A DNA stretch of 64,000 nt from positions 1 to 64,000 of IMG/VR virus record IMGVR_UViG_3300007863_000001; one strand, written 5' to 3'. Position 1 is the first letter of the stretch. Each line of letters begins with the position of its first letter. Shown here in pieces: positions 19,721 to 62,739 of this stretch. Origin of the DNA: a virus. Under the pieces are notes generated by a model that was not told the DNA's origin, did no database searches, and saw nothing but the letters and a program-made list of their open reading frames with translations. Position numbers and translations under genes: made by a program.

Positions 19721-19733
19721 TAAGTAATAAGAA

Positions 19734-22700: not shown

Positions 22701-25700
22701 GTAACTGGAGTAACCACAGATACTTTCACAGCATATGTTGGTGCTGCTGGTCCAGGAGATTTTTATACCCCATCAAATGCCTCATACAATACAAGTACTG
22801 GAGATATTACTCTCACATTAGGAAATCATAATGTTTCAATTGGTGATACTATCTTTATACGTGATAGTGCTTTGACATTTACTTGTGATATGGATTCCAA
22901 CCAGGCACAAAAAACTTATCCCCGTCCTGGAATTGATCCATATGCAAACAAAGGAATCGAAGTTACAGGAGTTGCGGGAACAACAGTAACAATAAATGTT
23001 GGATCTGCAGGAACGGATAGATTCTATACACCTTCTGATGCTGATTATAATCCAGTAACAGGTGATTTAACTGTTACTGTAGGACAACATGGACTAGGTG
23101 TTGGTAGAAATGTAGTTCTTGCAGATAATTCGTTTACATTTACATGTGCGTTAGATGGACATGGAACACAACACAATTATCCCCGTCCTGGTATTGATCC
23201 CTATGCAGGAAAATCAATACCAATTACGAATGTTGGATTAACAACTCATACAGTAACTAATGCGGTTTATAATGCAACTGTAGGTGTTGTTTCTTTCACC
23301 GTTCCAAATCACGGATTTAGTAATAGTGATTATGTAAAAGTAGATGATAATTCACTACTGTTTACATGTGATCTTGATGGAAATACAGCAATTAAGGCAT
23401 ATCCAAGACCAAATTATGATTTCCCAAGTGGTAGATGGATGATTATCAGTAATTCAACAACTGATACTTTTGAAATTAATGTAGGACCATCAACATATAC
23501 AGGTAATCATACATTTGTGAGTGCCGATCCTTACAGTCTCGAAAGGCAAGATGGAACATTTACAATTAATGTGGGTACAGGGGGGACAGATACTAGTGAA
23601 CATACTTTCGTTACTGCTTCATTAAATGCAATTGAATATACCCCACAATCTACACATACATTTGTAAGTGCATTAACAAACTCAATAGCAAGAAATCCAG
23701 AAAGATATTTCACCCCATCTGATGCAACTTATAATCCAATTTCTGGTGATGTAGTTTTAACAATTGGAGAGCATCCATTTACAAAAGGTGAAGGAATTGT
23801 ATTAAGACCAAATTCATTATCATTTACTTGTGATATGGACAATAATCAGTCCGTTAAATCATATCCACGTCCTGGTATCGACCCATATGCAGCAAGATCA
23901 ATTCCAGTTAAAGATTTTACATCAACAACAATTACTTTAAATGTTGGTGTTTCTGGACCAAACAGATATTATACTCCAACAGATGCAAACTACAATCCAT
24001 CTACTGGTAATTTAACTGTCACTGTAGGTCAACACGGATTAGGTGTAGGAAGAAATGTTGTTTTAGATGACAATTCATTCACATTTACTTGTGATTTAGA
24101 TGGTAATTCTACACAACATACTTACCCACGTCCTGGAAGTGATCCTTATGCAGGACGTTCTATAGAAATTATACAAGTAGGTCTAACTACACACACTGCG
24201 ACTGATGCACCTTACAATGCAGTAACTGGAGTTGTTACACTAGAAGTTACTGGTCATGGATTTAGTAATGGTGATTATGTATTAATTGAAGATAATTCAT
24301 TGAGATATTCTTGTGATTTAGATGGTCATTCTCAATGGAAATATTACCCAAGACCAAATTATGATTACCCAAGTGGAAGATGGTTAGCAATTTCAAATGT
24401 AACCACTGACACTTTCGATATTAATGTTGGTGAATCAAGTTATACAGGAATTCATACATTCATAAGTGCAACTACTGATGGAATTAAGAGACAGGATGGA
24501 ACATTTATAATGTATGTTGGTACTGGTGGAACAGACACTAGTAATCATACATTTGTAAGTGCATCTACAAATGCTATTAAGCATGAACCACAGTCAAATC
24601 ATACTTTTATTGCTGGAATTCCATATTCAGTAAGACAAGATATACAAGCACCTCATACTTTTGTCAGGTCTTCAGATGATGCTATTTCTGTCTATAGTTA
24701 TAATGGAACTGCAACAATAGGTATTACTTCAACTGTTTTCCCATATCCAGGAGCAAGTTACAACACTGTTGGTGATACATTCGATGTATTCACTGCACTA
24801 GAAGGAACAGAAGGGACAACTGTCGTATTAAATGCTGGAATTTCAACTATTGCACATACCTATGACTTTGGTGGAACAATAACAAATACACCTTTCACTG
24901 AATTTGAAGTAGTTGTTGATGAATCAATGACTGATAAGTTTAGTGGTTTCTATCCAGGTCAGTTTATACAATTTGATGATGTCTCAAGATTATTCAACGG
25001 AAGAAAAAGAAAATTCACTTTAACAGTTACTGAAGGAAATGAAACCAAAATCTTAAGTTTAAAGACTAAAAAAGAATCTGATATGAGAATGGAAAACAAT
25101 TTATTCGTTTTCGTTAATGATGTATTGCAGCAACCATATTATTCATACATTTGGAATGGTTCTAGAATTGTATTTAAAGAGGCACCTTTAAGAAATTCCA
25201 AATGTACTATATTATTCTTCAGAGGTTCTGATTTAGATGTTATTCAGATAGATCCACCAGAAACAATCAAAGAGGGTGATGTTGTTCAGATTGGTGAGAA
25301 TAAATTTGACCCAATTGATAGAGAACAGTTTGAGAGAGTTGTTAAGAAAATTATTTCTACAGATACCTTAGATACATTTACTTATGATAGTCTTGGAATT
25401 AATACCGATCCAAATAAAGAAAGACCAGTAAGATGGGAAAAACAAACCCAAGATAAAATTATTAATGGTGTCTTGTATTCTAAAGCAAGACCAAGTTTAC
25501 GTTCTAGAGTTGCTCCAATTACTAGACTCATTAAATCAGTTGAAGAAGATGATATTGAAATCTACGTAAATAATGCTTTTCCATTATTTACTGATGTTGA
25601 TAAATTACAGGAAAGTTTGAGAAATATAAAAATTGTTGATGACGGAGAAATAGAACCAGCAATAGTTCAATCAACAGTTTCAACAACATCTTCAATAGAA

Positions 25701-27494
25701 TCATTAACAATTGTTGATGGTGGGTCTGGTTTTGACACTATAGTAAATCCAACTGTAGCAATTTCCTCTGCATTTATTGATAAAAAAGACCCAATTTATA
25801 ATTGGACTGGTGCATCTGGTATCTCAAGTATCTTTAACTTCACAAGTGTCTTAATTTCATCTCCAATAGTTGCAGTTGGATCTAGTAATCTATTGGGAAT
25901 TTCAACAGATGGAACAAATTGGCAAGAAAGTACTATTGGATATGGAAGTACTGATGTCATAGATTTTAACTCTATTGCATTTGCACCACAAGACAATTTT
26001 GTTGCAGTTGGAAGCACTGGAACTATAGTTAAAGGTTCTGGTATTGGTGGAACTTCAATGACCTGGAGTGAACTGACTAAGTTCAAAGAAACATTCTTTA
26101 TTGGTTCACCTATTCCAACTTTATCTGCAAGTAACTATGATGATGCACTTAATGAGATAATTTATCACCCACAAAAAGATACATGGATTGCTGTTGGTGA
26201 TAATCGTGGTGTGTTTAAAGCAGTAGGAATTGGGACAACAACTTTCTATGAAAAGACACCACCAACTTTAGGTAATCTCAATAGTGTAGCATTTAATTCA
26301 ACTACGATTGTAGCAGTTGGAGATGGAGCAAATATAGCTTATTCAAATGATGGTAATATTTGGTCTCAATCTTTTGGCATTCCTTCGACAAGAGATTTAG
26401 AATCTGTAATATGGACTGGAACTACTTTTATTGCTGTAGGAAATCAAGGTACAATATTAACATCTGATAACGGGTCTACTAATTGGATAAAAATTACTCC
26501 AAATATATCCTTCAATTTTACTAAGATAAGGTATGAATATGGTTTATTTGTTGCTTTAAATGACTCTGGTCAATTATATTACTCAATGAATTTAGAAACC
26601 TGGGTGTTCAGAGAGACAAATTCTTTATATCAATTAAATGATTTAAGATTTATACCCACACCTCCACCAGTAGAGCAGAGAGATCCAAATGTTCCTGTAA
26701 TTACAGATGAAGGTAGATTTGTTGCTGTAGGTTCAGCAGGAACTGCTATCTATGCCGAACCAATCTTCAATAGAGCAACAGGAATTTCTACAGTAACAAA
26801 TGGTTCCGTATCTTCAGTTACAATTACAAATCCTGGATTTGGTTATCAGTATAATATTGCACCTCCAGTCATAATTGAATCCGATACAATTCAGTCTGAG
26901 CAAATCAGGTCAATAAAAGTTGTTGGTGACTTTGGACTTATTAAAAATGTTTCTGTTGGAAATTCCTTTATTAATTTCGAGTTAGAATCTGAGAGATATG
27001 ATAATACTACTCTAGGTATTGGTTATTCATCACTAAATACCTATGGTGTAAACTTTAGTGAACTTGAAGTTGGTGATTACTTTGTAATTACTGAAAGTAA
27101 TACCGTTGTTGGTCAAGCACTTACTGGAATTACTACTTACAGTGGTGGATTAAATAATTATCCAGATTCTAAAGTTGGAACTGCACAATCTGGTGGTTCT
27201 ATCAATGGCATATACAGAGCAGAACGTGTTTCTCCACCACCAAGTGGTGTTGGGATTGTTACAGTAAGATGCATGTTTGCATATGGTTCGGATTATGCAG
27301 AGCAACCTATAACAGCATTTGTAGATACCACTGCAAATACTAATGGAACTCATGGAAGATACTCTTGGGGTAAAATATATGATTATCAGAATAGAAGAGC
27401 ATTTACACCAAAGGAATTTGTTGTAAATACAGATAATGGTACTGTTGGTTTATCTACTGCACCACAAGTGTATAGAACCCGTACTATAAAATAG
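19734..27494 (+). CDS. Giant baseplate-associated virion protein (gp7 C-terminal-like) with a nested Cys/His domain array and a beta-propeller
   Basis: G.GY repeats; FDDIS..F.G modules; nine 'Y..TG..T...H...TC...YP...HT[FY]' domains at about 22020-24885; VAVG..G.I..S.DG..W blades at about 25800-26760; C-terminal G.YSWGKI; directly upstream of gp8. Confidence 0.75.
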   Translation: MTTRVIPGSGAVFTPNFDAEYRVTSFTILDGGTGYASTDPPKIEILGTRTPLEEGSFYPIIANGKITQIAILNSGRGYFPVEGTSDTKVGIVTTEYVESSLKVTKFDSNNNPYVSVASTESHVVMHVTSGKGSAIFENGYNRTIDQSGYSGVTAPITPNYSGQQNRFWGFFNPFPSYFTTGLGTDAKFNAFIVYDSFTGDAISTSLVLRSGGQKYSIGDQVSISGTYFGGNTPANDISFTVSTTTNTRIGSEANNSYVGVPGETISGIGSGVILTLTRDQLGDIDEIEVTNGGAGYALTSTIGVSGTFIGGSTPGDDLKLSPEVLGANTLPPVSYIQKTDDNGFRVSGLSTTSPFITLRSYGIGTHSFNFENPNASSIILIDNIIQSALYRRDLNRTLTQPIGIKTTTIHLSGITSITSLDTIQVDSEYFDVKDVGLNGPNTVEVVRGTMGSEVGYHTVGAAVTVLRGDFNIIRDEINFKSAPFGPIGPDGLEINSSFNGRMFSRQVDYGNQPNDKNVVFDDISTKFVGASSTEFFLESNTQPLVGIFTDTSAVLVGGIDVNLNPLVLINNVSQISGTDFDIDNDRLQLEKGNRIKFLTGTPGAGKISRTTNNSGLGYQRLVGAGGTIVVGAGGTIVSIDIQQFGSGYRTAPEVQVISNVGSGASLVANIGAGGVITSIDIIESGTGYVEPRLKVDIPINYSDIELEYATSPPGEGIGARASVVVGNRGDIIGFEMEEPGIYYKIGDRLKFPITELLPSTGISTVNVIALSYENTTGLTTVFTDTAHGLMPDDYVRLSGVAMTCESWTGFTTFTINSFNYEPSAGICTITTEIPHGLPEGDYIQLEEINLTCISEYTGITSTVFPYPAGINTFGNTYPQSSPNTLGGTYNVFRSIAGTSGTTIVFNAGVSTITHLYDPGSFIQNVTPTDAYYDPLSGEFTVTSVGHTVTTNNRIQLLEGGFAFTCSMDNNVTEHYLPESDHFAIGRLLQVTGVTTDTFTAYVGAAGPGDFYTPSNASYNTSTGDITLTLGNHNVSIGDTIFIRDSALTFTCDMDSNQAQKTYPRPGIDPYANKGIEVTGVAGTTVTINVGSAGTDRFYTPSDADYNPVTGDLTVTVGQHGLGVGRNVVLADNSFTFTCALDGHGTQHNYPRPGIDPYAGKSIPITNVGLTTHTVTNAVYNATVGVVSFTVPNHGFSNSDYVKVDDNSLLFTCDLDGNTAIKAYPRPNYDFPSGRWMIISNSTTDTFEINVGPSTYTGNHTFVSADPYSLERQDGTFTINVGTGGTDTSEHTFVTASLNAIEYTPQSTHTFVSALTNSIARNPERYFTPSDATYNPISGDVVLTIGEHPFTKGEGIVLRPNSLSFTCDMDNNQSVKSYPRPGIDPYAARSIPVKDFTSTTITLNVGVSGPNRYYTPTDANYNPSTGNLTVTVGQHGLGVGRNVVLDDNSFTFTCDLDGNSTQHTYPRPGSDPYAGRSIEIIQVGLTTHTATDAPYNAVTGVVTLEVTGHGFSNGDYVLIEDNSLRYSCDLDGHSQWKYYPRPNYDYPSGRWLAISNVTTDTFDINVGESSYTGIHTFISATTDGIKRQDGTFIMYVGTGGTDTSNHTFVSASTNAIKHEPQSNHTFIAGIPYSVRQDIQAPHTFVRSSDDAISVYSYNGTATIGITSTVFPYPGASYNTVGDTFDVFTALEGTEGTTVVLNAGISTIAHTYDFGGTITNTPFTEFEVVVDESMTDKFSGFYPGQFIQFDDVSRLFNGRKRKFTLTVTEGNETKILSLKTKKESDMRMENNLFVFVNDVLQQPYYSYIWNGSRIVFKEAPLRNSKCTILFFRGSDLDVIQIDPPETIKEGDVVQIGENKFDPIDREQFERVVKKIISTDTLDTFTYDSLGINTDPNKERPVRWEKQTQDKIINGVLYSKARPSLRSRVAPITRLIKSVEEDDIEIYVNNAFPLFTDVDKLQESLRNIKIVDDGEIEPAIVQSTVSTTSSIESLTIVDGGSGFDTIVNPTVAISSAFIDKKDPIYNWTGASGISSIFNFTSVLISSPIVAVGSSNLLGISTDGTNWQESTIGYGSTDVIDFNSIAFAPQDNFVAVGSTGTIVKGSGIGGTSMTWSELTKFKETFFIGSPIPTLSASNYDDALNEIIYHPQKDTWIAVGDNRGVFKAVGIGTTTFYEKTPPTLGNLNSVAFNSTTIVAVGDGANIAYSNDGNIWSQSFGIPSTRDLESVIWTGTTFIAVGNQGTILTSDNGSTNWIKITPNISFNFTKIRYEYGLFVALNDSGQLYYSMNLETWVFRETNSLYQLNDLRFIPTPPPVEQRDPNVPVITDEGRFVAVGSAGTAIYAEPIFNRATGISTVTNGSVSSVTITNPGFGYQYNIAPPVIIESDTIQSEQIRSIKVVGDFGLIKNVSVGNSFINFELESERYDNTTLGIGYSSLNTYGVNFSELEVGDYFVITESNTVVGQALTGITTYSGGLNNYPDSKVGTAQSGGSINGIYRAERVSPPPSGVGIVTVRCMFAYGSDYAEQPITAFVDTTANTNGTHGRYSWGKIYDYQNRRAFTPKEFVVNTDNGTVGLSTAPQVYRTRTIK
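22752..24641 (+). repeat. Tandem duplication of a 945-nt (315-aa) three-domain arm
   Basis: 22752-23696 (PGDFYTP...SIARN) and 23697-24641 (PERYFTP...VRQD) are equal in length with matching motif order; a third copy lies at about 55046-55978. Confidence 0.88.
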
Positions 27495-51201: not shown

Positions 51202-51235
51202 ACAATATAGAAATCCGTTGTCAGTTGGTAAAGTA

Positions 51236-54200
51236 ATGGCAAATACGAAAAGAGTACAGTTTAGAAGAGGAACCGATGCTGAACACCAGGTGTTCACTGG
51301 TGCTCCTGGTGAAATAACTGTTAATACCTCTAATAATTCCATCCATGTTCATGATGGAGTTACTCCTGCGGGAGTAGCAGCAGCAAGGTCCGACTTCAAT
51401 AATGTGACTGCTGGTATTATTACTGGTTCTCTAAGAGTTGGTGGAGCAAATACACTGGGAACTCACAGTTATGAGATGACTGTTGGAGTGGGAGAAACTG
51501 CAGGTGTTATAATAGATGGTGGTGTAGATATTTACGGTAGTCAGAATATCGTAGGAAGTTCTACTATTACTGATGGAAATTTCTCTGTTTCTGGTGCGAC
51601 TACAACCTCAAGTTGGGGAATGACGGTTGGTCATGGAACAACGGAAGTTATCATTCAGGGTAATGCAAGAATAACTGGTATTCTTTCTGTTGGTCAGAAT
51701 ACGATTTCTATTGATGGTAATACAAATAAAATTTCAGTTATTGATCTAGAATCTGAAACCATTACTTCTAACAACTTTAACTTTGTTAGTATTGCACAAA
51801 CTACATTTACTCACTCAACAGAAACTTCAGATATTGTTGCGATAGGGGGAACTATAATTCCTGTTGTTGGACTTAATACGGTTGCAGTTGGTGATTTTGT
51901 AACTATCAGTCCATATTTTACAAATGCTAAGGTAGTTGGAATTGGTTCAACTACAGTTACAACAAGTTTCACTAAGATAATTAAATTTACTTCTGTTGTA
52001 AATGATGTAGGTGTGGGTGCAACATCATTTGCAGTTGGAAATTTAGATGGCGTAATTGTTGGTAACAGTATAGATGTTGGTAATTTTATTTCTGGTGCAT
52101 CTATTACTGGAATTTCATCCATAGCAACATCAACTACTAACACTGATTTAGAATTATTCTTAACTGTAACACAAGATGCAGATGCTGGAGCAACTCAAAT
52201 TGCAGTCGGATCTACTTCAGGTATTGGTGTAGGTAATTCTGTAACAACTGGTTCTGGTGGAACATCCTTTGTTGCAGATGGTGGCACAACAACAGAAAGA
52301 ATTACTGCTATAGGAACAATTCCAGTAGGGACAGTCAATGTAATTACAAATTCAACAAGTACTGTTGGAAGTGCTGGAACTGAAGGAGAACTATCCATTG
52401 TTGGTGGTGGAACAACTTTCTTCGTAGATAGTGCAACTAAAATTGATACAGGTTATACTGTATTAATCTCAGGTGAGTCCGATAATACAGTTGCATCCGT
52501 TAATGTAAACACTGGTCTAATTACACTCTCAACTGGTGTATCCGGGGATGTTTTTTCAGGTACTGATGTAGATTTCACGAGAATAACTGTAGGATTTACT
52601 GATTCCGTTATAGGTTCTACTCAAGCAACAAATACAGCTAGTGCTGGTGCAAACTTAATCGAAGTTAATAGTGTTGAAAATGTATCTATTGGTAGTTCTG
52701 TATCAGTAATTACTGGTGATTTATCAACAGAATTATATTTCAGAAGAATTGCTGGTATTAATACGGTCACTCCATCAATTACCATTGATGGCACTCTACC
52801 TTTTGATGTCGATGCAGCAACTACACTAGAATATACTGATAGATTAACAACTCTTCCAGCAATTACATTAGCTAATGGTGTTGGAGCTGCTGTAACTGCA
52901 AATGCAACTACACTTTCGGTTAGTAGTGCAGAGCAAAATTTTTCACCTTCTGTTTCTGTCAGTTCTGGTTCTACCGAGACAATTACCTCTGGAACACAAG
53001 TTTCAATTTCATCATTTACTAATAATGCAGATACAGTTTTAATTAGACCTGGTGCTGCATCAACTTCAGAAATTGCCTTAGCATCAACTATCGATTTCCG
53101 TCGTGAATCATCTTCCAATACAATTATCAATCCAGCATCATCAGAGATTGGTAATTTAAATGTTACTGGAATTGCAACACTTGGTGAACTAACTTACCCA
53201 ATGTTTGACGGTAAAGAGGGACAAGTTCTTCAGACAGATGGCAATGGAAATATTGTCTTTGGTGCTGGTGGTAATAGTGGTTCTGATACTATTATTTTTG
53301 TATCGTCGGTAAATGGTAATGATGAGAATGACGGTATCTTACTGCCAGTTAAGTCAATCAAAAAAGGTGCTCAGTTAGCATCTAAAGTACAAAAAACAGA
53401 AGTCAGTGTTCTCGTAGAAACTGGTGAATATCTTGAAGATAACCCTATTATCGTTTATGATAATGTTTCTATTATCGGTGACTCACTAAGAAACATTGTC
53501 GTAAGACCTTTAAATGCAGGTAAGGACTTATTTAAAGTTAGAAATGGTTGTTATATAACAGGCATGACTTTCAACGACTTCGTTGATGGTGATACTAAAG
53601 TTCCTCAGCATACTTGGGATTATGCTATTGCATTTGATGATCCATTTGATACTAATTTAGACAGAACTGGATATGCATCAACAGAAATTCTAAAACTAAC
53701 TAATGCAATTTATACCAAAGAAACTGGTATTACTACATTTACCACCGAAAAGAAACATGATTTCTATAGAGGTAATACTGCAAGAGTTGCTGGTATTGCA
53801 TGGACTTGTGGTTATGATGAAGGTGGCATTAGAAATATTAACTATGACCACGTAAGTGGTGTTTCAACACTAACTTTCTATGGTGATGCAAACTTCACTG
53901 CAAATAATGTTGGTGGAGCAACAAGTTCTAGTAAGTACTATTGGTCAGAAGGACAAAGATTATATCTCAATAACTTAATGTTTGAGTGTAGCCCAGAGCA
54001 TATTGGGTTAACAACTGGAACATATCCATATCCTGGTCTAGATGACACATATGGTGCAGTTTATCCAATTACTGGTGTTAACACTGCAACTAAGCAAATT
54101 ACAATTCAAGGTGGTGTAAGTACAATTCCTCACGTCTACAAGGCATGGGAATCTCTAGGTATTTCCACTTTTGAATATGATAACGTAAGTGGCATTTGCA

Positions 54201-57200
54201 CAATTGAAACAAGATATAGGCATAATTTAAATGATAATGACAATATTACATTAGGTAATTTACCATTTACATGTTCAGCAGAGCATACTGGTGTTACAAC
54301 ACATGTATTCCCAGATGGAACTTTAAATACATTCAACCATGATGGTTATACGTTTAAGGTACGTTCCTCTGGTATAGCAGCATCTATCACTGGAGCAGAT
54401 TATGATGGTGTAAGTGGAATCATGACGGTGACATCACCAAGTCACGGAATGTCAACTGGTGATGAACTTAGAATCGCAACTGAAGGAATATCATTCACTT
54501 GTGACCAAGACGACAACCAACAACCATCTGCATATCCTCGTGCTACAGACCCAGCAGCAGGACAATGGTTATCTGTTACTGTTATTGACGCAAATACATT
54601 ATCAGTTGATGTTGGAAATGCAGGAACCGCATCCACATCAGTTCACACTTACTCTAGTTCAACTGATTTCCCAATATCCCTCTTCCCAAATAAATTCACA
54701 GTAAATGCTGGAACATCAACAATTCCACATACTTATGAGGGATATGCACCAGAAAACATTTCTGGATTTACATATGATGCATACACTGGTATTGCAACCG
54801 TAACAACAGCAGCAACACTAAATGCTGTTGCTGGTGAGCACATAAGTTTAGTTGGTCTTCAATTAACTTGCACAGACCAATCTCTGGGAATTACGAAGGA
54901 TATTACTTTCGCAGATTACGACCATATCTCTGGTGTAACTACAATCCATACCAAAAATGCACATGACTTAAAACTAGGAAGTAAGATTCATCTAGAAGAT
55001 TTAAGATTTGAGTGTGATTATGGAATCAGTGTATATCCTAAAGGGGAATACTTCACACCAACTGATGTAAGTTACAACACGGCAAATGGTGATTTAGTAT
55101 TCACTATTGGATCTCACAGTCTTACTACTAATGATTACATCGATATTGCAGACAATTCCATTGCATTTACATGCACAATGGATGGTGGTCAAGAAGCTAA
55201 GACTTATCCAAGAGCAGGAATTGATCCATATGCTGGACGTTCCATACAAATCTCTGGAACAACTGCAACACAAATTACGGTAAATGTGGGTTCTGCAGGA
55301 ACAGATGTTTACTTTACACCAACTGGTGCAACTTATGACCCATCTACTGGTGTCATGGAAGTCACAGTTGGACAGCACGGTTTAGGTGTTGGACGTGGTG
55401 TTGTTCTAGAAGACAATTCTTTCACCTTCACTTGCCTAACTGATCCTAATGATCCTAAGACATATCCACGTTCTGGTCAGGACCCATTTGCAGGTAAGTC
55501 CATTCCTATCACATCTGTTGGTATGTCAACCCATACCGCAACAGATGCACCTTATAACGCAGGAACTGGAGCAATTACAGTTACAGTATCTGCTCATGGA
55601 TTTGCAAATGGTGACTTTGTTCTTATCGAAGACGATTCACTAACATATAACTGTGTACTTGATGGTAATGTAGAGCAGAAGTCTTATCCAAGAAAGAATT
55701 ATGACTATGCAAGTGGTAGATGGTTAAGAGTTTCAAATGTAACTACAAATACATTTGATATTAACATCGGTGCTTCTTCTTATGCTGGTGCTCATACCTT
55801 TATAAGTGCTTCATCAAATGGTGTTAAGAGACAAACAGGTACATTCACTCTTCAGGTTGGTACATCTTCTGATACCAGTGATCATACATTCGTAAGTGCA
55901 ACTGCAAATGCAATTAAGCATGAACCACAAGCAGCACATACTTTCAATGCTGCTGCAAGTAACTTAACTAACGCAGTATCGACAAGTGGCAAGGATCTAA
56001 ATGTATTATCTGTAATTAGTCCCAACAAATTTACAGTTAATGTTGGTGTTTCTACATTAGCACACACATACTTAGATAAAGGTGTTCTTAACAGATACTA
56101 TACACCTAAGAACAATGTAACTGCTGCAGATTATGACCACATTTCTGGTGTAACCACAATCACTGCACCTGGTTCATACTTTAACCCTGGTGAGATTATC
56201 TACCTAGATGGTATGACATTCTCATGTGCATACGGTACAGATACTTATCCATCAGGAAATCTTGGTTATGGATTCACTGTAACATCAGTAACAAACAATG
56301 AATTTGATACTTTCACCTTCGTGTGTAATGTTGGTGTTTCTACATTAGCACATACTTATGTAAGTGGTGGTACAGTTCAGTCGGGAATTACAACAACAAT
56401 CTTCCCAGATGGAACATCATACCCAAGAGATGCATTTGAAGTTCTTACAGTAAATAATGCTACAGAAATAGAAATTCAAGTAGGTAAGTCAGACATTCCA
56501 CACACTTACATAAGTGGTGGTACTGCACAGGTTACTCCAATTACAAGGAAGGTTGGTACTGCACAGCAAGTACAATACTATCCAGAATTAAATCGTAGTG
56601 GAAAAATCGACTTTGGTGTTGTTAACAGTCTCAATGATCTACAATTCTTAATACGTGGTGAGACTAACGAAAGAGATCACTTCTATACACAAGGTGGTCA
56701 AGTAGAATTATCTAAACCAAAGATTAACAAATCACCTTATATTCAGAATTGCTCAATTCTATCTTCTCTTGGTGGTAATGGTATTCTCGTTGATGGTGAT
56801 AAAATTATTTCCACAAATAGAGGTCTGATTCCCGAACTTGGTGAAATTCCAGTAGTTCTACCATCACCAGAATTTGGTAAGTCGATGGTTGCTGCAACCT
56901 TCACCATGATTTCATTTGGTGGTATTGGTTGGAGAACTATTAACGATGGTTATGCACAGGTTGTTTCTTGCTTCCAAATTTTCTGTGGATATGGTTCCCT
57001 CTGTCAGTCTGGTGGTTATCTCTCCATCACGAACTCCGCAACTAACTTTGGTCGTTTCTCTCTAAGAGCAACTGGTTACAGCAGAAATTCATTCGTATTC
57101 GATAGAGGAAGAGTTGTTAACACTGGTACTTCTGGTGGATTACAGACACTAAGAGTCGTTGGTCTAGGTAGAAGTGATCAGCAGTTATATGTTCTTAAGT

Positions 57201-60200
57201 TCCTTGATAACGAACTTGCAGATAGAACTCCCGACTTCAAGCCTTCTCTTGTCACTCAGCAGTTCACGGGTGCTAATATCTCCACAGAGACAAATATCTT
57301 TAATATTGCAGCTCATCCATTCCAGAATGAAGATTCTATTATCTATGAAGGTAATGAAGATGCAAATCCAAGAGATTTAGTTGGTGGACTTGTCAATAAT
57401 GGCATCTATTATGTTGGATACATTGATGCTTCTAACTTTAAATTGTATCTAGATGAAGGTCTTGATAGTGCTGTAAATATTGATTCGTCTATTACTGGTG
57501 TTAACACATTCACAAAGAACTCTATTGAATTCTTCGTTGATGATATCATTGAGCATCATCAGCAATATCAGCAACTACAACTTGCATCTACCCCAACATC
57601 TACTTGGGTTGCAGGTAGAGAAGTTACACAGTCAGGTAGTGGAGCAGTTGGTTTTGCTGTTACTTATCTCTCAGATGTAAACAGTTTGATTGTTTCCGTT
57701 GAAGAAGTTGGTGGGGTAAGGAATGTATTTAATACTTCCGGCGCAGTTGCAGACCATGCACCTTCACCTGTAGCAATAGGAGTCACTGGTGTTGTTGGTC
57801 TTACCACTTATCACACCATTAACTTCAAAGTTAATTCAACTGATAATGCGAGCACTGTTATCGGTATCGCAAGTCTTGTTGAGACTTATAGATGCCATAT
57901 GCACAGACCATCTATCATTAACTCCTCTGCACACACTTGGGAGTACTCTGGTTCTGGTACTGACTATAACGCACTACCACAGAATGGTGGTCAATCACAA
58001 CCAAATACTGAGCAAATCTCTGAACTTGGTGGTCGAGTCTTCGCATCAGGTACTACTGAACTAGGTGACTTTAAGATTGGTTCTCAAATTACTGCGTTTA
58101 ACAGAACTGGTAGTATCGTCTTCAACAACAAAGTAACCATTGGTGAACTTGATTCAATCCGATTATCACTTTCTGGTGGTGTTGCGATTGAAGAATTCTC
58201 AACTGATGTCGGACTTGGTGAAAACGAAACTGGTGGTCCTCAGAATAAGAGAGTTGCAACTCAGTTAGCAGTTAGAAGTTTCTTAAGCAACAGACTAGGA
58301 ACATTCATTGACAAGGTTGTATCAACCAACGCAATTCCAAATGCTGTTGTTCAGTTGAACTCTAATGGTCAAATTAACTCTGACCTAATTCCACCTAAAG
58401 TTGTCAACTTTGTTCAAACAAACGTTGCAGCAGGTAGAACCGTTCTTGTTAACGAGATTCCTGCTTACAACATCATTCAGGGTGACACAGTTGTTGAACC
58501 AGATGATGCGTTCGTACTTGTAAATGATACTTTAGGACAGTACCTAATCATTGATAATAACTATGGTGGTTCTGGATACATTCACAATTTCAGCAATGGA
58601 GATACTGTTACTAGTGCTCTAAGTGCTATTGTAACTGGTGTTGTTACTGCACCTCCTGGTGGAGTTGGAATTGGAACAACTATTGCCGAGTACACTGGTT
58701 ACGGTTCTACAGGTTATGTCAGAGGTGTTGGTTTAGGTCTAGTAGTCACACAAGCAGGTTCTGGGTATAACAATGCAGGCATTTACAGTGGCATTCCACT
58801 CAGTCCAGTAACTGGTTCTGGTTCAGGAATGCTCGCAATTGTTACAATTAATATTTCTGGACAAGTTAATCAAATTGATGTCCTTGCCGGTGGTAAGGGA
58901 TATGCAACAAATGATATCCTGACAGTTTCCGACCCTAACTTATTGGGTGGAAGAACTGGAGGTGCAGATGTTCAGTTGAAGGTTACTGATTGGGAGACAA
59001 GACTGTATATTGCACTAACAAATAATCAGAAGTTTGCTGGTTCTGCAGCACTCAATGACTATATTGCAGATGCAAATGCTGGTACTGCAACAACTACACT
59101 CACTGCATCATATAGTGTTCCATTCGACCCAACTGACATTGGAATTGGTGGTGATGTTGACTTTGCAAACGATAGAATTGTAGTTGGAGCAAGTCAATAC
59201 GCAGATGGTGACCCAGTTCTTTATAATACGAATGGTGGCAATATTCTCGTTGCTGGTGGACAGGGAATTCTTAACTTAACCACATATTACACTAAAGTTG
59301 TTGGTGCTGGTACTTCTATCGAGATTTATAGAAACTACTCACTAACAGATCAGGTTGACTTAACCGGTAGTGGTGGTGGAACCCACGAATTCCGTAGAGA
59401 TACTGCAAGATTTGAGAAGAATACAATTGCTTGGGTCAATCATGGATTCAGCACAGGTGAAGCAATCAGAGTAAGTGGACAAACTCCATTAGGTATTTCC
59501 ACTGGTTCCTTCTACTATACTGGTTCTATCACACAGAACTCCTTCACATTGCACGAAACTGCATCTGATGCTGGTTTCTCTGTTGCTGGTGTAATCTTCA
59601 ACGAAGTTGGAATTGCAGCATCTGCAACTGGTTCTATGACATTCACAGAATCGAATGTCAGATACAATGATTCAGTCAATACATCTTCAACTAATGTAAA
59701 CAACTGGTCACTACTTGCAAGACAAGATATTGACGCATCCAACATCATCTCTGGTATTGTCAATACCTCAAGACTTGGTGGTGGTACTGCAAACTCCGAT
59801 ACTGTCTTAACGGGTGGTTCTGCGTTCCTCAAGAACGTATTCAAGATGGGCATTGATGCTAATGCTCCAATTACACTTTCATCCTCCTCACAGGAGTTCC
59901 CGAATGGTGGAACAGGAATTGTTACCCACTACGGAACAGTTAACATTGGAATTACTTCTGTTGCACAATCACTTGATACATATTCAACTATTGGTTTCGC
60001 AAAATTCAAGAACTCTACATTTGCTATTGATGCAACTGGTGGTGTAAGTATAAAGAATTCTTCAACTGGTGACATTGATGCAGTATCACTTGAATCACGC
60101 AGTCTCGCATACGTACTCAACTCTGCTAATCACACTGGTGCAATTCCAGTAACAAGAGGTGGTACAGGTCTATCTGCTGCTCCAGCAAACGGTGCATTCC

Positions 60201-61558
60201 TCCAAGGTAATGGTACTGGTTATAACTTAACTACAAGTCCAACATTCACTGGTCAACTTAAAATCACTGCTAGTGTTGACTATGCACTTGATATCAACAC
60301 CAACAGAGATGCTAAGATTGTTCTTAGAGGAACAAATAATCCTTATATCCGTTGGAGACAATCTAATACTGATAGACTCTATATTCAGTGGGTAGATAGT
60401 TATAATGCACCACTCTATAGAAACCAAGAGTCCTCATATCATTACTTTAGAGGTAATAACTCTGGTGGTATCATACTTCAGGATAATGGTGGATCCAATC
60501 GTGGTTATCTATATCATGATGGTGGTGATAGTTTCGGTCTCCTTGACCGTGATGGTAACTGGGCAGTTCGTGTCGTAAGAGATAGTCATGTTGACTTCCG
60601 TGATAATAACGAATCAGTATTTACCGTAGGTCAAGGTGGACATAGTTCAAACTATGGTACTGTTTCCACCCAAGGTGGTGGTAGAGGTGGATGGGAAGGT
60701 TATTCCATCAACGGTCGTTATGTATTCATGAGTTCTGATAACAATTCTTGTGGTTGGTATAATGACGTTGATAACCGTTGGTTAATTTACTATCAGAGAA
60801 ATGATAGATTAGACTTCTATGATCCTGATGGTGGTCAGGTTTGGTTCCGTAATGATAACGGTGAAATCCAAACGTTCATCCACGAACGTAAGTATGATAA
60901 TGATTATCTATACTTCGGTAATGATGCAGACTTCAGAACTCATCACAATGGCAGTCACCAGTACTTCCGCAATTATAACCACGGAAGTGGTGACTACTAC
61001 TTCCAAGGTGAAGACCATCAGGGAACTAACCATGCTCTCCTCTACCTGATTACCAATGGTAATAATCCATATGTTGACCTATATTATGATGGTGACTTAA
61101 AACTTAGAACTATCAATAATGGTATTCAGGTTTATGGTAGAGTATATGCAAGAGGTGGATTCCAAAACCAGTCAGACTCTAGACTTAAAGATAATGTTGA
61201 AAAGATTAATAATGCACTAGAAAAAATTGAGGCAATTAGAGGTGTAACATTCGACTGGAATGAAAAGTCAAAAGACATGGCTGGTATTCGTGATTATGGT
61301 GTTATCGCACAAGAGGTTGAACCAGTTCTCCCAGAACTTGTTGAAGAAAGAGAAGAGGAGATTACAAGAAAGAGAACAGAGGAAGAAATTGAGGATGATG
61401 GAACTCCAGTTGACATTGTTATCGGAATTGAAACTTACAAGGTTATGAATTACAATGGTCTAATTCCTGTTCTCATTGAAGGTGTTAAAGAACTTTCCGA
61501 AAAACTCAACATAATTGAAACAAGACTGAATAGTGCTGGGATTAGTTCGGGTTCCTAA
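51236..61558 (+). CDS. Giant tail fibre/spike (about 3440 aa): Mtd_N anchor, two nested domain trees, a beta-helix-like region and an S74 chaperone
   Basis: ATG 51236 preferred over TTG 51218 because MANTKRVQFRRGT aligns with the preceding gene's start. IFVS..NG.D.NDG, G.Y.E.NPI...GDSLR and SPYIQNCS beta-helix motifs; NQ|SDSRLKDNV...GVIAQEVE. Confidence 0.88.
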   Translation: MANTKRVQFRRGTDAEHQVFTGAPGEITVNTSNNSIHVHDGVTPAGVAAARSDFNNVTAGIITGSLRVGGANTLGTHSYEMTVGVGETAGVIIDGGVDIYGSQNIVGSSTITDGNFSVSGATTTSSWGMTVGHGTTEVIIQGNARITGILSVGQNTISIDGNTNKISVIDLESETITSNNFNFVSIAQTTFTHSTETSDIVAIGGTIIPVVGLNTVAVGDFVTISPYFTNAKVVGIGSTTVTTSFTKIIKFTSVVNDVGVGATSFAVGNLDGVIVGNSIDVGNFISGASITGISSIATSTTNTDLELFLTVTQDADAGATQIAVGSTSGIGVGNSVTTGSGGTSFVADGGTTTERITAIGTIPVGTVNVITNSTSTVGSAGTEGELSIVGGGTTFFVDSATKIDTGYTVLISGESDNTVASVNVNTGLITLSTGVSGDVFSGTDVDFTRITVGFTDSVIGSTQATNTASAGANLIEVNSVENVSIGSSVSVITGDLSTELYFRRIAGINTVTPSITIDGTLPFDVDAATTLEYTDRLTTLPAITLANGVGAAVTANATTLSVSSAEQNFSPSVSVSSGSTETITSGTQVSISSFTNNADTVLIRPGAASTSEIALASTIDFRRESSSNTIINPASSEIGNLNVTGIATLGELTYPMFDGKEGQVLQTDGNGNIVFGAGGNSGSDTIIFVSSVNGNDENDGILLPVKSIKKGAQLASKVQKTEVSVLVETGEYLEDNPIIVYDNVSIIGDSLRNIVVRPLNAGKDLFKVRNGCYITGMTFNDFVDGDTKVPQHTWDYAIAFDDPFDTNLDRTGYASTEILKLTNAIYTKETGITTFTTEKKHDFYRGNTARVAGIAWTCGYDEGGIRNINYDHVSGVSTLTFYGDANFTANNVGGATSSSKYYWSEGQRLYLNNLMFECSPEHIGLTTGTYPYPGLDDTYGAVYPITGVNTATKQITIQGGVSTIPHVYKAWESLGISTFEYDNVSGICTIETRYRHNLNDNDNITLGNLPFTCSAEHTGVTTHVFPDGTLNTFNHDGYTFKVRSSGIAASITGADYDGVSGIMTVTSPSHGMSTGDELRIATEGISFTCDQDDNQQPSAYPRATDPAAGQWLSVTVIDANTLSVDVGNAGTASTSVHTYSSSTDFPISLFPNKFTVNAGTSTIPHTYEGYAPENISGFTYDAYTGIATVTTAATLNAVAGEHISLVGLQLTCTDQSLGITKDITFADYDHISGVTTIHTKNAHDLKLGSKIHLEDLRFECDYGISVYPKGEYFTPTDVSYNTANGDLVFTIGSHSLTTNDYIDIADNSIAFTCTMDGGQEAKTYPRAGIDPYAGRSIQISGTTATQITVNVGSAGTDVYFTPTGATYDPSTGVMEVTVGQHGLGVGRGVVLEDNSFTFTCLTDPNDPKTYPRSGQDPFAGKSIPITSVGMSTHTATDAPYNAGTGAITVTVSAHGFANGDFVLIEDDSLTYNCVLDGNVEQKSYPRKNYDYASGRWLRVSNVTTNTFDINIGASSYAGAHTFISASSNGVKRQTGTFTLQVGTSSDTSDHTFVSATANAIKHEPQAAHTFNAAASNLTNAVSTSGKDLNVLSVISPNKFTVNVGVSTLAHTYLDKGVLNRYYTPKNNVTAADYDHISGVTTITAPGSYFNPGEIIYLDGMTFSCAYGTDTYPSGNLGYGFTVTSVTNNEFDTFTFVCNVGVSTLAHTYVSGGTVQSGITTTIFPDGTSYPRDAFEVLTVNNATEIEIQVGKSDIPHTYISGGTAQVTPITRKVGTAQQVQYYPELNRSGKIDFGVVNSLNDLQFLIRGETNERDHFYTQGGQVELSKPKINKSPYIQNCSILSSLGGNGILVDGDKIISTNRGLIPELGEIPVVLPSPEFGKSMVAATFTMISFGGIGWRTINDGYAQVVSCFQIFCGYGSLCQSGGYLSITNSATNFGRFSLRATGYSRNSFVFDRGRVVNTGTSGGLQTLRVVGLGRSDQQLYVLKFLDNELADRTPDFKPSLVTQQFTGANISTETNIFNIAAHPFQNEDSIIYEGNEDANPRDLVGGLVNNGIYYVGYIDASNFKLYLDEGLDSAVNIDSSITGVNTFTKNSIEFFVDDIIEHHQQYQQLQLASTPTSTWVAGREVTQSGSGAVGFAVTYLSDVNSLIVSVEEVGGVRNVFNTSGAVADHAPSPVAIGVTGVVGLTTYHTINFKVNSTDNASTVIGIASLVETYRCHMHRPSIINSSAHTWEYSGSGTDYNALPQNGGQSQPNTEQISELGGRVFASGTTELGDFKIGSQITAFNRTGSIVFNNKVTIGELDSIRLSLSGGVAIEEFSTDVGLGENETGGPQNKRVATQLAVRSFLSNRLGTFIDKVVSTNAIPNAVVQLNSNGQINSDLIPPKVVNFVQTNVAAGRTVLVNEIPAYNIIQGDTVVEPDDAFVLVNDTLGQYLIIDNNYGGSGYIHNFSNGDTVTSALSAIVTGVVTAPPGGVGIGTTIAEYTGYGSTGYVRGVGLGLVVTQAGSGYNNAGIYSGIPLSPVTGSGSGMLAIVTINISGQVNQIDVLAGGKGYATNDILTVSDPNLLGGRTGGADVQLKVTDWETRLYIALTNNQKFAGSAALNDYIADANAGTATTTLTASYSVPFDPTDIGIGGDVDFANDRIVVGASQYADGDPVLYNTNGGNILVAGGQGILNLTTYYTKVVGAGTSIEIYRNYSLTDQVDLTGSGGGTHEFRRDTARFEKNTIAWVNHGFSTGEAIRVSGQTPLGISTGSFYYTGSITQNSFTLHETASDAGFSVAGVIFNEVGIAASATGSMTFTESNVRYNDSVNTSSTNVNNWSLLARQDIDASNIISGIVNTSRLGGGTANSDTVLTGGSAFLKNVFKMGIDANAPITLSSSSQEFPNGGTGIVTHYGTVNIGITSVAQSLDTYSTIGFAKFKNSTFAIDATGGVSIKNSSTGDIDAVSLESRSLAYVLNSANHTGAIPVTRGGTGLSAAPANGAFLQGNGTGYNLTTSPTFTGQLKITASVDYALDINTNRDAKIVLRGTNNPYIRWRQSNTDRLYIQWVDSYNAPLYRNQESSYHYFRGNNSGGIILQDNGGSNRGYLYHDGGDSFGLLDRDGNWAVRVVRDSHVDFRDNNESVFTVGQGGHSSNYGTVSTQGGGRGGWEGYSINGRYVFMSSDNNSCGWYNDVDNRWLIYYQRNDRLDFYDPDGGQVWFRNDNGEIQTFIHERKYDNDYLYFGNDADFRTHHNGSHQYFRNYNHGSGDYYFQGEDHQGTNHALLYLITNGNNPYVDLYYDGDLKLRTINNGIQVYGRVYARGGFQNQSDSRLKDNVEKINNALEKIEAIRGVTFDWNEKSKDMAGIRDYGVIAQEVEPVLPELVEEREEEITRKRTEEEIEDDGTPVDIVIGIETYKVMNYNGLIPVLIEGVKELSEKLNIIETRLNSAGISSGS

Positions 61559-62028: not shown

Positions 62029-62739
62029 ATGAAAGAACAAGAAAAAAAAATAGAGCAGTCTATAATTTTTGGTGACTGTATCTGGAGTCAAGATATAGAT
62101 CTCAATAATACAGATATTGATAATGATAATTTAATTGATTATGCATATGAAGTTTATCGAACACAGTCTAAGATTAAAAAATCTAATAGACTAGGATTTC
62201 AAAGTAGTAGTCTACCAACAACACCACAAACGGCTGACTCACGATTAAAACCATTACTTACAGAAGTTGTAAGTTTTGCTCAGAGTATTTGTTATGATCA
62301 ATTATATAAAAATGCAGAGGAATCTGGTTTACTTTTTGGTGTAGATTCTTGGTTGAATATAAATCAAAAATATGCATACAATCAACCCCATATCCATGGA
62401 GGCAATACTCTCCTTAGTTTAATTTATTATGCACAGACTCCAGAGAATTGTGGCAATTTTTATCTTACTAGAGAAGATTCCAGAGTAGATTTAATATCAA
62501 GATTTAAGATTGATAATTTTTTCCCTATGGCACCGCAAATACATTATAAACCTACACCAGGAAAAATATTAGCTACTCCTGGTTGGGTTACTCATGGTGT
62601 CGAACAGAACCTTTCTGATGAAGATAGGATTTCATTTGCGTTTAATATAAATTTAATGCCAAATAATAATAATGATAATGATAATGATAATCAACCTTTA
62701 GACAAAGAAGAGCAAAAAGTGAATAAGTATGCATATTGA
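62029..62739 (+). CDS. 2OG-Fe(II) oxygenase-like protein (TIGR02466-type)
   Basis: KSNRLGFQS, WLNIN..YAYN.PHIH, LS.IYY, PGWVTHGV..N.S.EDRISFAFN. Confidence 0.85.
   Translation: MKEQEKKIEQSIIFGDCIWSQDIDLNNTDIDNDNLIDYAYEVYRTQSKIKKSNRLGFQSSSLPTTPQTADSRLKPLLTEVVSFAQSICYDQLYKNAEESGLLFGVDSWLNINQKYAYNQPHIHGGNTLLSLIYYAQTPENCGNFYLTREDSRVDLISRFKIDNFFPMAPQIHYKPTPGKILATPGWVTHGVEQNLSDEDRISFAFNINLMPNNNNDNDNDNQPLDKEEQKVNKYAY

What the first reader, a model, noticed from the sequence alone, without database searches (positions are those of the whole stretch)
53684..56710. Second nested tree (10 domains) of the same family, inserted into the beta-helix of the 3446-aa tail fibre
Seen in sequence: ten openings (IYTKETG, NYDHVSG, EYDNVSG, DYDGVSG, TYDAYTG, DYDHISG, SYNTANG, TYDPSTG, PYNAGTG, DYDHISG), each followed by a Cys (WTC/FEC/FTC/LTC/YNC/FSC), and ten closings (HVY, HTY x5, HTF x3, HFY). 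They parse as 1[2[3[4][5[6[7[8[9]]]][10]]]]], depth 8 with two branch points. The whole ~1000-aa block lies between 'DYAIAFDDP' and 'KPKINKSPYIQNCS', motifs I expect to be close together in the beta-helix of related cyanophage fibres (recollection, not checked). Inference: a dendritic side-branch grown out of one loop of a tailspike. Together with the baseplate protein, this suggests a reusable system for building branched, multivalent host-contact surfaces.
Basis: partly seen in the sequence, partly recalled or inferred. Interest (0 to 1): 0.85.

Follow-up and report, generated by a model that had tools for sequence, protein, structure and literature searches.

The report
Nested beta-barrel tree in cyanophage fibre
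One surface loop of a giant tail-fibre protein of a marine cyanobacterial virus holds ten copies of a small beta-barrel domain spliced into one another as a branched tree; relatives carry 0 to 5 copies at the same spot, so this looks like a fast-evolving, probably host-binding, side arm.

Summary
Residues 823-1831 of the 3446-aa fibre (nt 53684-56710) contain ten copies of an ~88-aa domain. Four are contiguous. Six are split, with N- and C-parts that match complementary parts of a domain HMM.

A stack parse gives 1[2, 3[4], 5[6[7[8[9]]], 10]], depth 5-6 rather than 8.

The loop-insertion claim is strongly supported. In 79 IMG/VR homologues the two flanking motifs are either about 20 aa apart (most) or separated by 96, 188, 286-300, ~400 or 501-509 aa. 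These inserts parse as balanced trees of 1-5 domains on a conserved root barrel. Five metagenomic relatives (73-99% identity) keep the same ten-domain tree.

AlphaFold2 models the 7[8[9]] arm with pLDDT 92. The barrel resembles the ubiquitin-E1 FCCH domain and the inserted beta-barrel of phage endosialidase. The whole-block model was poor, so the overall geometry is unresolved. A host-binding role is inferred, not tested.

Recursive self-nesting is published for the Si3 insertion of cyanobacterial RNA polymerase. I found no paper describing it in phage fibres. This scan has already found the same build in other cyanophage genomes.

The parts
51218..61558 (+). Tail-fibre gene, 3446 aa from a TTG start (an ATG lies at 51236). 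Mtd_N domain at residues 13-49, Peptidase_S74 intramolecular chaperone at residues 3319-3375.
53294..53683 (+). N-terminal flank of the host domain (residues 693-822), ending in FDDP...RTGYAST. It is a probable right-handed beta-helix and is 95-99% identical in relatives.
   Evidence: (pLDDT 75-93)
53684..56710 (+). The inserted block, residues 823-1831: ten nested FCCH-like beta-barrels.
53684..53827 (+). Domain 1 (root), N-part, residues 823-870, HMM positions 2-44.
53828..54145 (+). Domain 2, contiguous leaf, residues 871-976.
54158..54385 (+). Domain 3, N-part, residues 981-1056.
54386..54661 (+). Domain 4, contiguous leaf inside domain 3, residues 1057-1148.
54662..54745 (+). Domain 3, C-part, residues 1149-1176, HMM positions 69-87.
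54755..54901 (+). Domain 5, N-part, residues 1180-1228, HMM positions 1-43.
54902..55060 (+). Domain 6, N-part, residues 1229-1281, HMM positions 1-53.
55061..55321 (+). Domain 7, residues 1282-1368. Nearly full length by HMM (positions 2-85), ending in 'VYF' rather than H-T-F.
55322..55540 (+). Domain 8, N-part, residues 1369-1441, HMM positions 2-73.
55541..55807 (+). Domain 9, contiguous leaf at the tip of the long arm, residues 1442-1530.
55808..55891 (+). Domain 8, C-part (last two strands), residues 1531-1558.
55892..55948 (+). Return strand, residues 1559-1577 (conserved '...NAIKHEPQ..HTF'). It either closes domain 7 or packs onto it.
55949..56077 (+). Domain 6, C-part, residues 1578-1620, HMM positions 58-86.
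   Evidence: pLDDT 76-92
56117..56368 (+). Domain 10, contiguous leaf, second child of domain 5, residues 1634-1717.
56369..56518 (+). Domain 5, C-part, residues 1718-1767, HMM positions 43-88. It resumes at '...GITTTIFPDGT'.
56519..56710 (+). Domain 1 (root), C-part, residues 1768-1831 ('YYPE...DHFYTQGG').
56711..57115 (+). C-terminal flank of the host domain (residues 1832-1966), starting SKPKINKSPYIQNCS. It is 97-100% identical in relatives.
19731..27491 (+). The second gene of the genome that carries the same domain family, also nested. It encodes a 2586-aa baseplate-wedge-type protein and includes two copies of the three-domain cassette.

Best explanation
Residues 823-1831 are a rooted tree of ten small six-stranded beta-barrel domains of one family. 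The fold is like the ubiquitin-E1 FCCH domain and the inserted beta-barrel of phage endosialidases.

The root barrel (#1) is spliced into one turn of the fibre's conserved, probably beta-helical, domain. Three barrels (#2, #3, #5) are spliced side by side into the loop after the root's invariant Cys. Barrel #3 holds #4. Barrel #5 holds #6 and #10. Barrels #6 to #9 form a serially nested arm.

The ends of such a barrel probably lie side by side. If so, each insertion leaves the mother fold intact and each daughter is tied to its mother by two chain crossings. The result would be a stiff, branched appendage on the side of each subunit of the (inferred) trimeric fibre.

The number of barrels at this site changes readily in evolution, from 0 to 10. 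The most likely role is extra, multivalent binding of host cell-surface structures, probably glycans, which tunes adsorption and host range.

Shown: domain family, split and complementary halves, the insertion site, the copy-number series, conservation of the tree, the barrel fold of the 7-8-9 arm. Inferred: beta-helix identity, trimer, rigid branched geometry, binding function.
For: Motifs and Cys at the stated places.

HMM matches: full length for #2, #4, #9, #10. Complementary halves for #1 (2-44 | 43-88), #3 (1-56 | 69-87), #5 (1-43 | 43-88), #6 (1-53 | 58-86) and #8 (2-73 | 68-85).

Excision test: cutting out the inner domains in silico gives single full-length HMM matches for #1, #3, #5 and #6 that score above either half.

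Natural series at the identical site: inserts of 1-2, 96, 187-188, 286, 300, 396-405, 501, 509 and 1009 aa. An automatic parser gives balanced brackets for all 17: (), (), (), (()), (()), ((())). The root halves are conserved whatever lies between them, and they are contiguous in L023 and L032.

Five relatives at 73-99% block identity keep the same tree with at most 3 gap positions. Their flanks are 95-100% identical and the block 73-99%.

AlphaFold2 of residues 1282-1577: pLDDT 92, pTM 0.83. The post-#9 segments are modelled as confident strands that supply the last two strands of #8. An independent BFVD model of a 40%-identical module superposes at TM 0.86.

Fold matches: UBA1 FCCH Z 8.2 (rmsd 2.6, 79 aa), phi92 endosialidase residues 255-340 Z 7.8 (rmsd 2.5, 84 aa). 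Weak Pfam hits to E1_FCCH and End_beta_barrel.

The endosialidase barrel is a polysialic-acid binding site and a host-discrimination hotspot (preprint 10.1101/2025.10.06.680778). The fibre carries the endosialidase-type S74 chaperone.
Against: - No model coordinates could be read, so strand pairing between the halves was not inspected directly.
- The whole-block model was poor for #1, #2 and the C flank (pLDDT 66.9, pTM 0.38), so the overall shape is not shown.
- #7 is nearly complete by HMM without its trailing strand, so one nesting level is ambiguous.
- The beta-helix identity rests on leads only.
- Structural Z scores of 7-8 are in the range the tool calls 'middling'.
- No binding data, no virion data and no evidence of expression were obtained.
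- The faster divergence of the block is also what a weakly constrained decoration would show.
Confidence: 0.72

Rival explanations
1. The architecture is the same nested tree, but the role is purely structural or a non-specific decoration. It could be a brace or spacer between fibres, baseplate and sheath. It could also be a Hoc-like, weakly adhesive ornament with no part in specific receptor recognition.
For: FCCH-like barrels occur as outward-facing decorations on siphovirus tail tubes, with no receptor role shown (PMC13576161). The same domains sit in a baseplate-wedge-type protein. Most homologues do without any insert at this site. The tree shape is kept without indels at 73% identity, which suggests a structural constraint.
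Against: The nearest phage structural match is a glycan-binding insert of a tailspike. Copy number varies between close relatives at a fixed site of a receptor-binding-type protein. The block diverges several times faster than its scaffold.
Confidence: 0.2
2. The block is not monomeric barrels. It is a trimeric, intertwined out-and-back shaft, as in the T4 gp37 needle. In that case the H-x-[YF] strands would line a three-fold axis, perhaps binding metal, and the bracket pattern would simply reflect the chain going out and returning.
For: The protein is probably trimeric (S74 chaperone). His and Cys are strikingly conserved: Cys 99%, His19 89%, His80 63% of 907 leaves. An out-and-back path would also give nested brackets.
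Against: A monomer model folds with pLDDT 92 into barrels that match monomeric FCCH and endosialidase barrels. A single 96-aa copy exists on its own in a loop. The insert leaves from a side loop of a subunit rather than from the fibre axis (inference). Side-by-side siblings (#2, #3, #5) do not fit a single shaft.
Confidence: 0.05
3. The domains are ordinary head-to-tail repeats (beads on a string), and the 'closings' are only linker strands.
For: #7 scores as a nearly complete domain and is followed directly by #8. Domains #2, #4, #9 and #10 are contiguous.
Against: #1 and #5 stop at HMM position 43-44, and the next domain's first strand follows immediately. The missing positions 43-88 appear hundreds of residues later, in stack order. 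Homologues show the root barrel uninterrupted, or interrupted by 1-4 whole domains at the same point.
Confidence: 0.03

Closest known systems
Si3 insertion of cyanobacterial RNA polymerase beta' (RpoC2), e.g. Prochlorococcus marinus A2C6T1; PDB 8EMB
   Same: It is a recursive insertion of one small beta-rich domain family into itself. Published depth is up to six levels, with nodes that hold several insertions, all grown from one loop of a host domain (PMC13114784).
   Different: The domain family is different (sandwich-barrel hybrid motif, HABAS), and no Si3 chain appeared among the top 50 structural matches. Si3 is a cellular enzyme part, not a virion surface protein. Here the copy number ranges from 0 to 10 among close relatives at one site.
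Endosialidase tailspikes (K1F endoNF; phi92, PDB 4HIZ)
   Same: These are trimeric phage receptor-binding proteins with the same C-terminal S74 intramolecular chaperone. A small beta-barrel is inserted into a loop of the main domain. The structural match is Z 7.8, rmsd 2.5 over 84 residues. That barrel binds polysialic acid and discriminates hosts.
   Different: There is a single barrel, not nested, and the host domain is a beta-propeller sialidase. Sequence similarity is only marginal: PF12195 hits 1 of 35 leaves at E 0.066. That 4HIZ residues 255-340 are the barrel is my reading, not checked in the paper.
Ubiquitin-activating enzyme E1 FCCH domain (Pfam PF16190; UBA1 residues about 211-297)
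   Same: It is the best structural match (Z 8.2, rmsd 2.6, 79 aa; Foldseek prob 0.97). It is itself an inserted domain. There are sub-threshold Pfam hits (24.5 bits against a 29.5 cut-off in the sister gene; 2 of 35 leaves).
   Different: No Pfam hit in the fibre block itself. The biological context is unrelated. There is a single copy with no nesting.
FCCH-like outer domain of siphovirus tail-tube proteins (gp13/gp39 of phages NBD2/MED16)
   Same: The same barrel type is used as an outward-facing add-on of a virion protein (PMC13576161).
   Different: It is fused at a terminus, one copy per subunit. It is not inserted and not nested.

Membership tests
Recursive same-family domain-insertion architecture (as described for RNAP Si3) | A domain is interrupted by a complete domain of its own family (A1-B-A2), and this is repeated within B. 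| tested here: met
   Complementary HMM halves around whole domains. In-silico excision restores full-length matches. The bracket strings balance in the 17 further IMG/VR homologues parsed; the window and its 5 close relatives lack one or two weak closing halves.
Recursive same-family domain-insertion architecture (as described for RNAP Si3) | The domain is a sandwich-barrel hybrid motif, i.e. homologous to Si3. | tested here: inconclusive
   No Si3 or RNAP chain is in the top 50 of the wide structural search. 8EMB appears only as a generic multi-domain match (E 7e-4, prob 0.10).
E1_FCCH (Pfam PF16190) | Sequence match above the Pfam gathering score. | tested here: not met
   No hit in the fibre or its leaves. 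The sister gene scores 24.5 bits against a 29.5 cut-off. Two of 35 leaves hit, best E 1.3e-3.
E1_FCCH (Pfam PF16190) | [quoted passage not shown] | tested here: inconclusive
   Top structural matches are UBA1 211-297 (Z 8.2) and 4P22 (Z 7.9). The tool rates Z below 8 as possibly just a common arrangement.
End_beta_barrel (Pfam PF12195, endosialidase beta-barrel) | Sequence match above threshold. | tested here: not met
   One of 35 leaves hits at E 0.066. The structural match to 4HIZ is Z 7.8.
End_beta_barrel (Pfam PF12195, endosialidase beta-barrel) | Binds host capsular glycan. | not testable with these tools
   This needs binding assays.
Peptidase_S74 (Pfam PF13884) intramolecular chaperone of trimeric fibres | Sequence match above the gathering score at the C-terminus. 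| tested here: met
   63.6 bits against a cut-off of 22, residues 3319-3375.
Right-handed parallel beta-helix (Beta_helix, pectate-lyase-like, DUF1565) | Sequence or structure match of the host domain. | tested here: inconclusive
   Only PF12708 at E 0.033, 14.4 bits against 27. The profile of insert-free homologues finds nothing in the PDB. ESM-Atlas neighbours DUF1565 0.89 and Beta_helix/NosD 0.86-0.88 are leads. The modelled N flank is a helix followed by short regular strands.

The most novel reading that the evidence does not exclude
Cyanomyoviruses may have a general 'growth grammar' for virion surface proteins. One FCCH-like barrel that tolerates insertions in two or three of its own loops is spliced recursively into itself and into permissive loops of fibre and baseplate proteins. 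This would produce heritable, quickly re-shaped branched adhesin trees: 1-10 barrels at this site, and more than 30 barrels at a parsed depth of about 8 in proteins such as S-CAM7 gp208. The shape and the tips of the tree would set avidity and host range. That would be a class of receptor-binding architecture not described for any virus.
Probability: 0.35. Interest if true: 0.85.

Novelty: new variant of a known kind. Interest (0 to 1): 0.68.

Why it matters
Receptors and host-range determinants of the abundant T4-like cyanophages are poorly known, and their giant fibre proteins are mostly annotated 'hypothetical' or 'structural'.

This locus offers a clean natural experiment. One loop of a 95-100% conserved scaffold carries 0, 1, 2, 3, 4, 5 or 10 barrels in related phages. 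That makes the role of the barrels directly testable with swap and deletion series and arm-binding assays.

It also gives protein evolution and design a second, independent example of deep recursive domain insertion. The example comes with stereotyped junctions and hundreds of natural variants.

Tried and rejected
- **Whole-block fold.** The AlphaFold2 run on residues 693-1892 with a 99-row alignment gave pLDDT 66.9 and pTM 0.38, with #1, #2 and the C flank unmodelled. It neither shows nor contradicts the overall tree geometry or the continuity of the host fold. A Foldseek search with that model returned only generic multi-domain matches.
- **Complex prediction.** I intended to test whether the root N-part (A3) and C-part (A4) dock as one barrel.
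- **Model coordinates.** They are not exposed to the script box, so no contact map or strand-pairing check was possible.
- **PDB sequence searches.** Searches with the block, both flanks, a profile of the insert-free host domain and the leaf profile found nothing meaningful.
- **Pfam.** It gives no family for the block and none above threshold for the host domain.
- **Nucleotide searches.** Searches of phage isolates found no close relative of this genome.
- **Literature.** Searches for nested or recursive domains in phage fibres found nothing. Only the Si3 case turned up.
- **Pairing permutation test.** The stack-matched pairing of HMM end and start coordinates beat or tied all but 112 of 120 permutations (8 of 120 were as good or better). 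This is supportive but weak.
- **In-situ duplication.** I considered recent duplication in place as the origin and rejected it. The ten domains are only 17-46% identical to each other, while the 7-8-9 cassette is 63% identical to one in another gene.
Full report
**Context.** The window is the first 64 kb of a 99.7-kb IMG/VR viral contig, estimated 52% complete. It is a T4-like cyanomyovirus with G+C near 35%. No close isolate exists in the phage collection.

ORF 51218-61558 encodes 3446 aa. It has an Mtd_N domain at residues 13-49 and a Peptidase_S74 intramolecular chaperone at 3319-3375. PHROG matches are to tail-fibre families. It lies in a cluster of fibre and baseplate genes. The S74 chaperone implies a trimeric fibre; that is established knowledge of the family, not tested here.

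**Checking the observation.** All ten openings are present at residues 831, 875, 986, 1061, 1185, 1233, 1285, 1372, 1445 and 1638. A Cys follows each one, and the ten H-x-[YF] closings are present too. Block residues 823-1831 correspond exactly to nt 53684-56710.

I seeded an HMM from six leaf copies and rebuilt it from 907 unique full-length copies found in homologues (88 positions). The most conserved positions are Y5, G10, H19, C36, P48 and G74.

In the fibre the HMM matches as follows:
- #2, #4, #9 and #10 match end to end.
- #1, #3, #5, #6 and #8 match only as an N-part (HMM 1 to 43-73), directly followed by the first strand of the next domain.
- The missing C-parts (HMM 43-69 to 86-88) occur later, in reverse order.

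I then cut out the inner domains in silico and joined the halves. This gives a single full-length match for #1, #3, #5 and #6, scoring above either half, and a two-piece full match for #8.

Reading openings and closings in order as a stack gives 1[2, 3[4], 5[6[7[8[9]]], 10]].

One level is ambiguous. #7 is almost complete by HMM, ending 'VYF', and all domains of this 'chain' type end '..KYFTP' without the His. However, the number of trailing 'H-x-F' strands equals the number of openings both here (3 and 3) and in ACG-2014j (4 and 4). In either reading the chain must return along the arm to reach the C-part of #6. The depth is therefore 6, or 5 on the stricter reading.

**The insertion site.** The C-flank (residues 1814-1966) retrieved 80 IMG/VR loci. 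For 79 of them I mapped both flanks.
- In most, including 47 non-identical sequences, 'FDDP.D....R.GYA' and 'KP.I..SPYIQNCS' are about 20 aa apart.
- In the others the same junction holds 96 aa (L023, L024, L032), 187-188 (L010, L012), 286 (L009), 300 (L007, L008), 396-405 (nine loci), 501 (L011) or 509 aa (L014).

The 96-aa insert is one uninterrupted barrel, homologous to the window's root halves. In the larger inserts the same root is interrupted after its 'W/F-T-C-G-Y-D-E' loop by one to four further domains. The root halves stay alignable throughout.

An automatic HMM and stack parser returns balanced strings for all 17: (), (), (), (()), (()), ((())). The junctions are stereotyped. A child ends '...HTYVSGGTAQ' and the mother resumes 'GITTTIFPDGT', both in these loci and at #5 of the window.

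More distant isolates (P-HM2, MED4-213, ACG-2014j) have 1350-1600 aa of partly different content between the same flanks. This loop is therefore a general hot spot for insertion.

Five metagenomic proteins (P0005, P0006, P0014, P0015, P0016) are 99, 90, 87, 76 and 73% identical over the block. They keep the same ten-domain tree with at most 3 gap positions, while their flanks stay 95-100% identical. The gene is therefore real and under selection. The tree evolves several times faster than its scaffold.

**Structure.** The 7[8[9]] arm (residues 1282-1577) is a conserved cassette. Sixty-one IMG/VR loci carry it, either at the same length or with one extra ~90-100-aa domain.

With a 46-row alignment AlphaFold2 gives pLDDT 92 and pTM 0.83. 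In the model the strand order of leaf #9 is reproduced in #8 only if the segments after #9 ('...TGTFTLQ' and 'HTFVSA', pLDDT 87-98) supply its last two strands. An independently computed BFVD model of a 40%-identical module from phage ACG-2014d superposes at TM 0.86 over 299 columns.

Against solved structures, the best matches are:
- phi92 endosialidase residues 255-340 (Z 7.8, rmsd 2.5, 84 aa);
- a phage FCWL1 head-to-tail protein (Z 7.5);
- then FNR-type FAD-binding, riboflavin-synthase and ribosomal-L3 barrels at Z 5-6.

Foldseek agrees on Uba1, with probability 0.97 but E about 4e-3. At sequence level there are only sub-threshold Pfam hits to E1_FCCH and End_beta_barrel, and nothing in the PDB. 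I therefore call the domain FCCH-like/endosialidase-barrel-like, not a member of either Pfam family.

The whole block with its flanks folded poorly, so the overall shape is not shown.

The host domain has no Pfam or PDB match. A weak pectate-lyase-like hit and ESM-Atlas neighbours (DUF1565, Beta_helix/NosD at 0.86-0.89) make a right-handed beta-helix likely but not proven.

**Family census.** The leaf profile finds 853 proteins at E <= 1e-3 (226 at <= 1e-30) among 1.84 billion representatives, with up to 47 matched stretches per protein. My parser applied to the retrieved proteins gives nesting in most. The parsed depths reach about 8, with 30-34 domains, in proteins such as S-CAM7 gp208 (P0047). 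Strings with unbalanced brackets make some depths unreliable.

In this genome the domain occurs only in the fibre and in the 2586-aa baseplate-type protein. That protein holds two copies of the cassette, 63% and 57% identical to the fibre's. The ten domains of the block are only 17-46% identical to each other. The tree was therefore assembled from old, diverged modules and cassettes, not by recent duplication in place.

**Mechanism.**
- Shown: one domain family acts as both host and guest. There are two or three permissive loops: after the invariant Cys, around HMM 53-69, and before the last strand or strands. There is a fixed entry point in the scaffold.
- Inferred: the barrel's termini probably lie side by side, so each insertion leaves the mother fold intact. 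Each daughter is then held by two chain crossings, which should give stiffer arms than beads on a string. With a trimeric fibre there would be three such ten-barrel trees per fibre.
- Function, inferred from three observations. The nearest phage analogue is the inserted, glycan-binding, host-discriminating barrel of endosialidase tailspikes. The location is in a receptor-binding-type protein. Copy number is plastic and divergence is fast.

I put about 0.85 on the architecture. I put about 0.45 on host-surface binding, against about 0.2-0.3 for a structural or decorative role.

**Comparison with what is known.** Recursive self-insertion with branching nodes, six levels deep, is published for the Si3 insertion of cyanobacterial RNA polymerase beta' (PMC13114784). 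The principle is therefore not new. FCCH-like barrels are known as outer add-ons of siphovirus tail tubes (PMC13576161). Six literature searches found no description of nested barrels in phage fibres or baseplates. The library is incomplete, so this is absence of evidence only.

Earlier follow-ups in this scan reached the same reading on other cyanophage genomes. This report adds:
- the exact loop-confined site, with a 0-to-10 copy-number series;
- the corrected tree;
- the FCCH/endosialidase-barrel fold assignment;
- the family census.

**Verdict.** The architectural interpretation is supported, and the function is plausible but untested. I class it as a new variant of a known kind, with interest 0.68.

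Noticed in passing
window 19731-27491 (+): The 2586-aa baseplate-wedge-type protein carries about 10-12 copies of the same barrel family, also split and nested. Two copies of the 7-8-9 cassette are 63% and 57% identical to the fibre's. It has a sub-threshold Pfam E1_FCCH hit at residues 825-850.
   Followed up: partly
proteins P0035, P0040, P0041, P0047 (S-CAM7 gp208), P0122: The HMM and stack parse gives 30-34 barrels and a bracket depth of about 8 in these 4.0-4.3-kaa cyanophage proteins. The window's tree is therefore not the largest of its kind. Some strings are unbalanced, so the depths are approximate.
   Followed up: partly
each barrel of window 53684-56710; family alignment: One Cys is 99% conserved at the end of the strand before the main insertion loop. 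His19 is 89% conserved and His80 63%. A single invariant Cys in a virion surface domain is unexplained; it could be a metal site or core packing.
   Followed up: no
L001 (P-HM2), L002 (MED4-213), L003 (ACG-2014j): In these isolates the same scaffold loop ('..FDDKQR' to '..ASPYIQNSS') holds 1350-1600 aa. There is no root barrel at the borders, only a few FCCH-like barrels inside, and other unidentified domains. This looks like a general insertion hot spot.
   Followed up: partly
window 62029-62739 and 62729-63358 (+): Two adjacent, overlapping 2OG-Fe(II) oxygenase genes (phrog_81) lie directly downstream of the fibre gene.
   Followed up: no
window 48298-51144 (+): A second, 948-aa fibre gene lies immediately upstream. 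It has a tail-protein N-terminus and a long-tail-fibre distal/S74-type C-terminus by PHROG matches.
   Followed up: no
homologous giant fibres (e.g. P0036, P0044, P0067, P0088): The precomputed Pfam column lists PF00502 (phycobilisome protein) in several relatives of this fibre, and the top ESM-Atlas neighbour cluster also carries it. This matches an earlier scan note on phycobiliprotein-like modules in cyanophage fibres.
   Followed up: no
window 51218-51238: The ORF is listed from a TTG at 51218. An ATG six codons downstream (51236, 'MANTKRVQF...') sits just before the Mtd_N domain and may be the true start.
   Followed up: no
window 51800-53107 (+): The N-terminal third of the fibre is rich in repeated 'A..G.T.I.V...VG..V'-type segments. 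A first-reader note proposes a second, Cys-free nested tree there. I did not test it.
   Followed up: no
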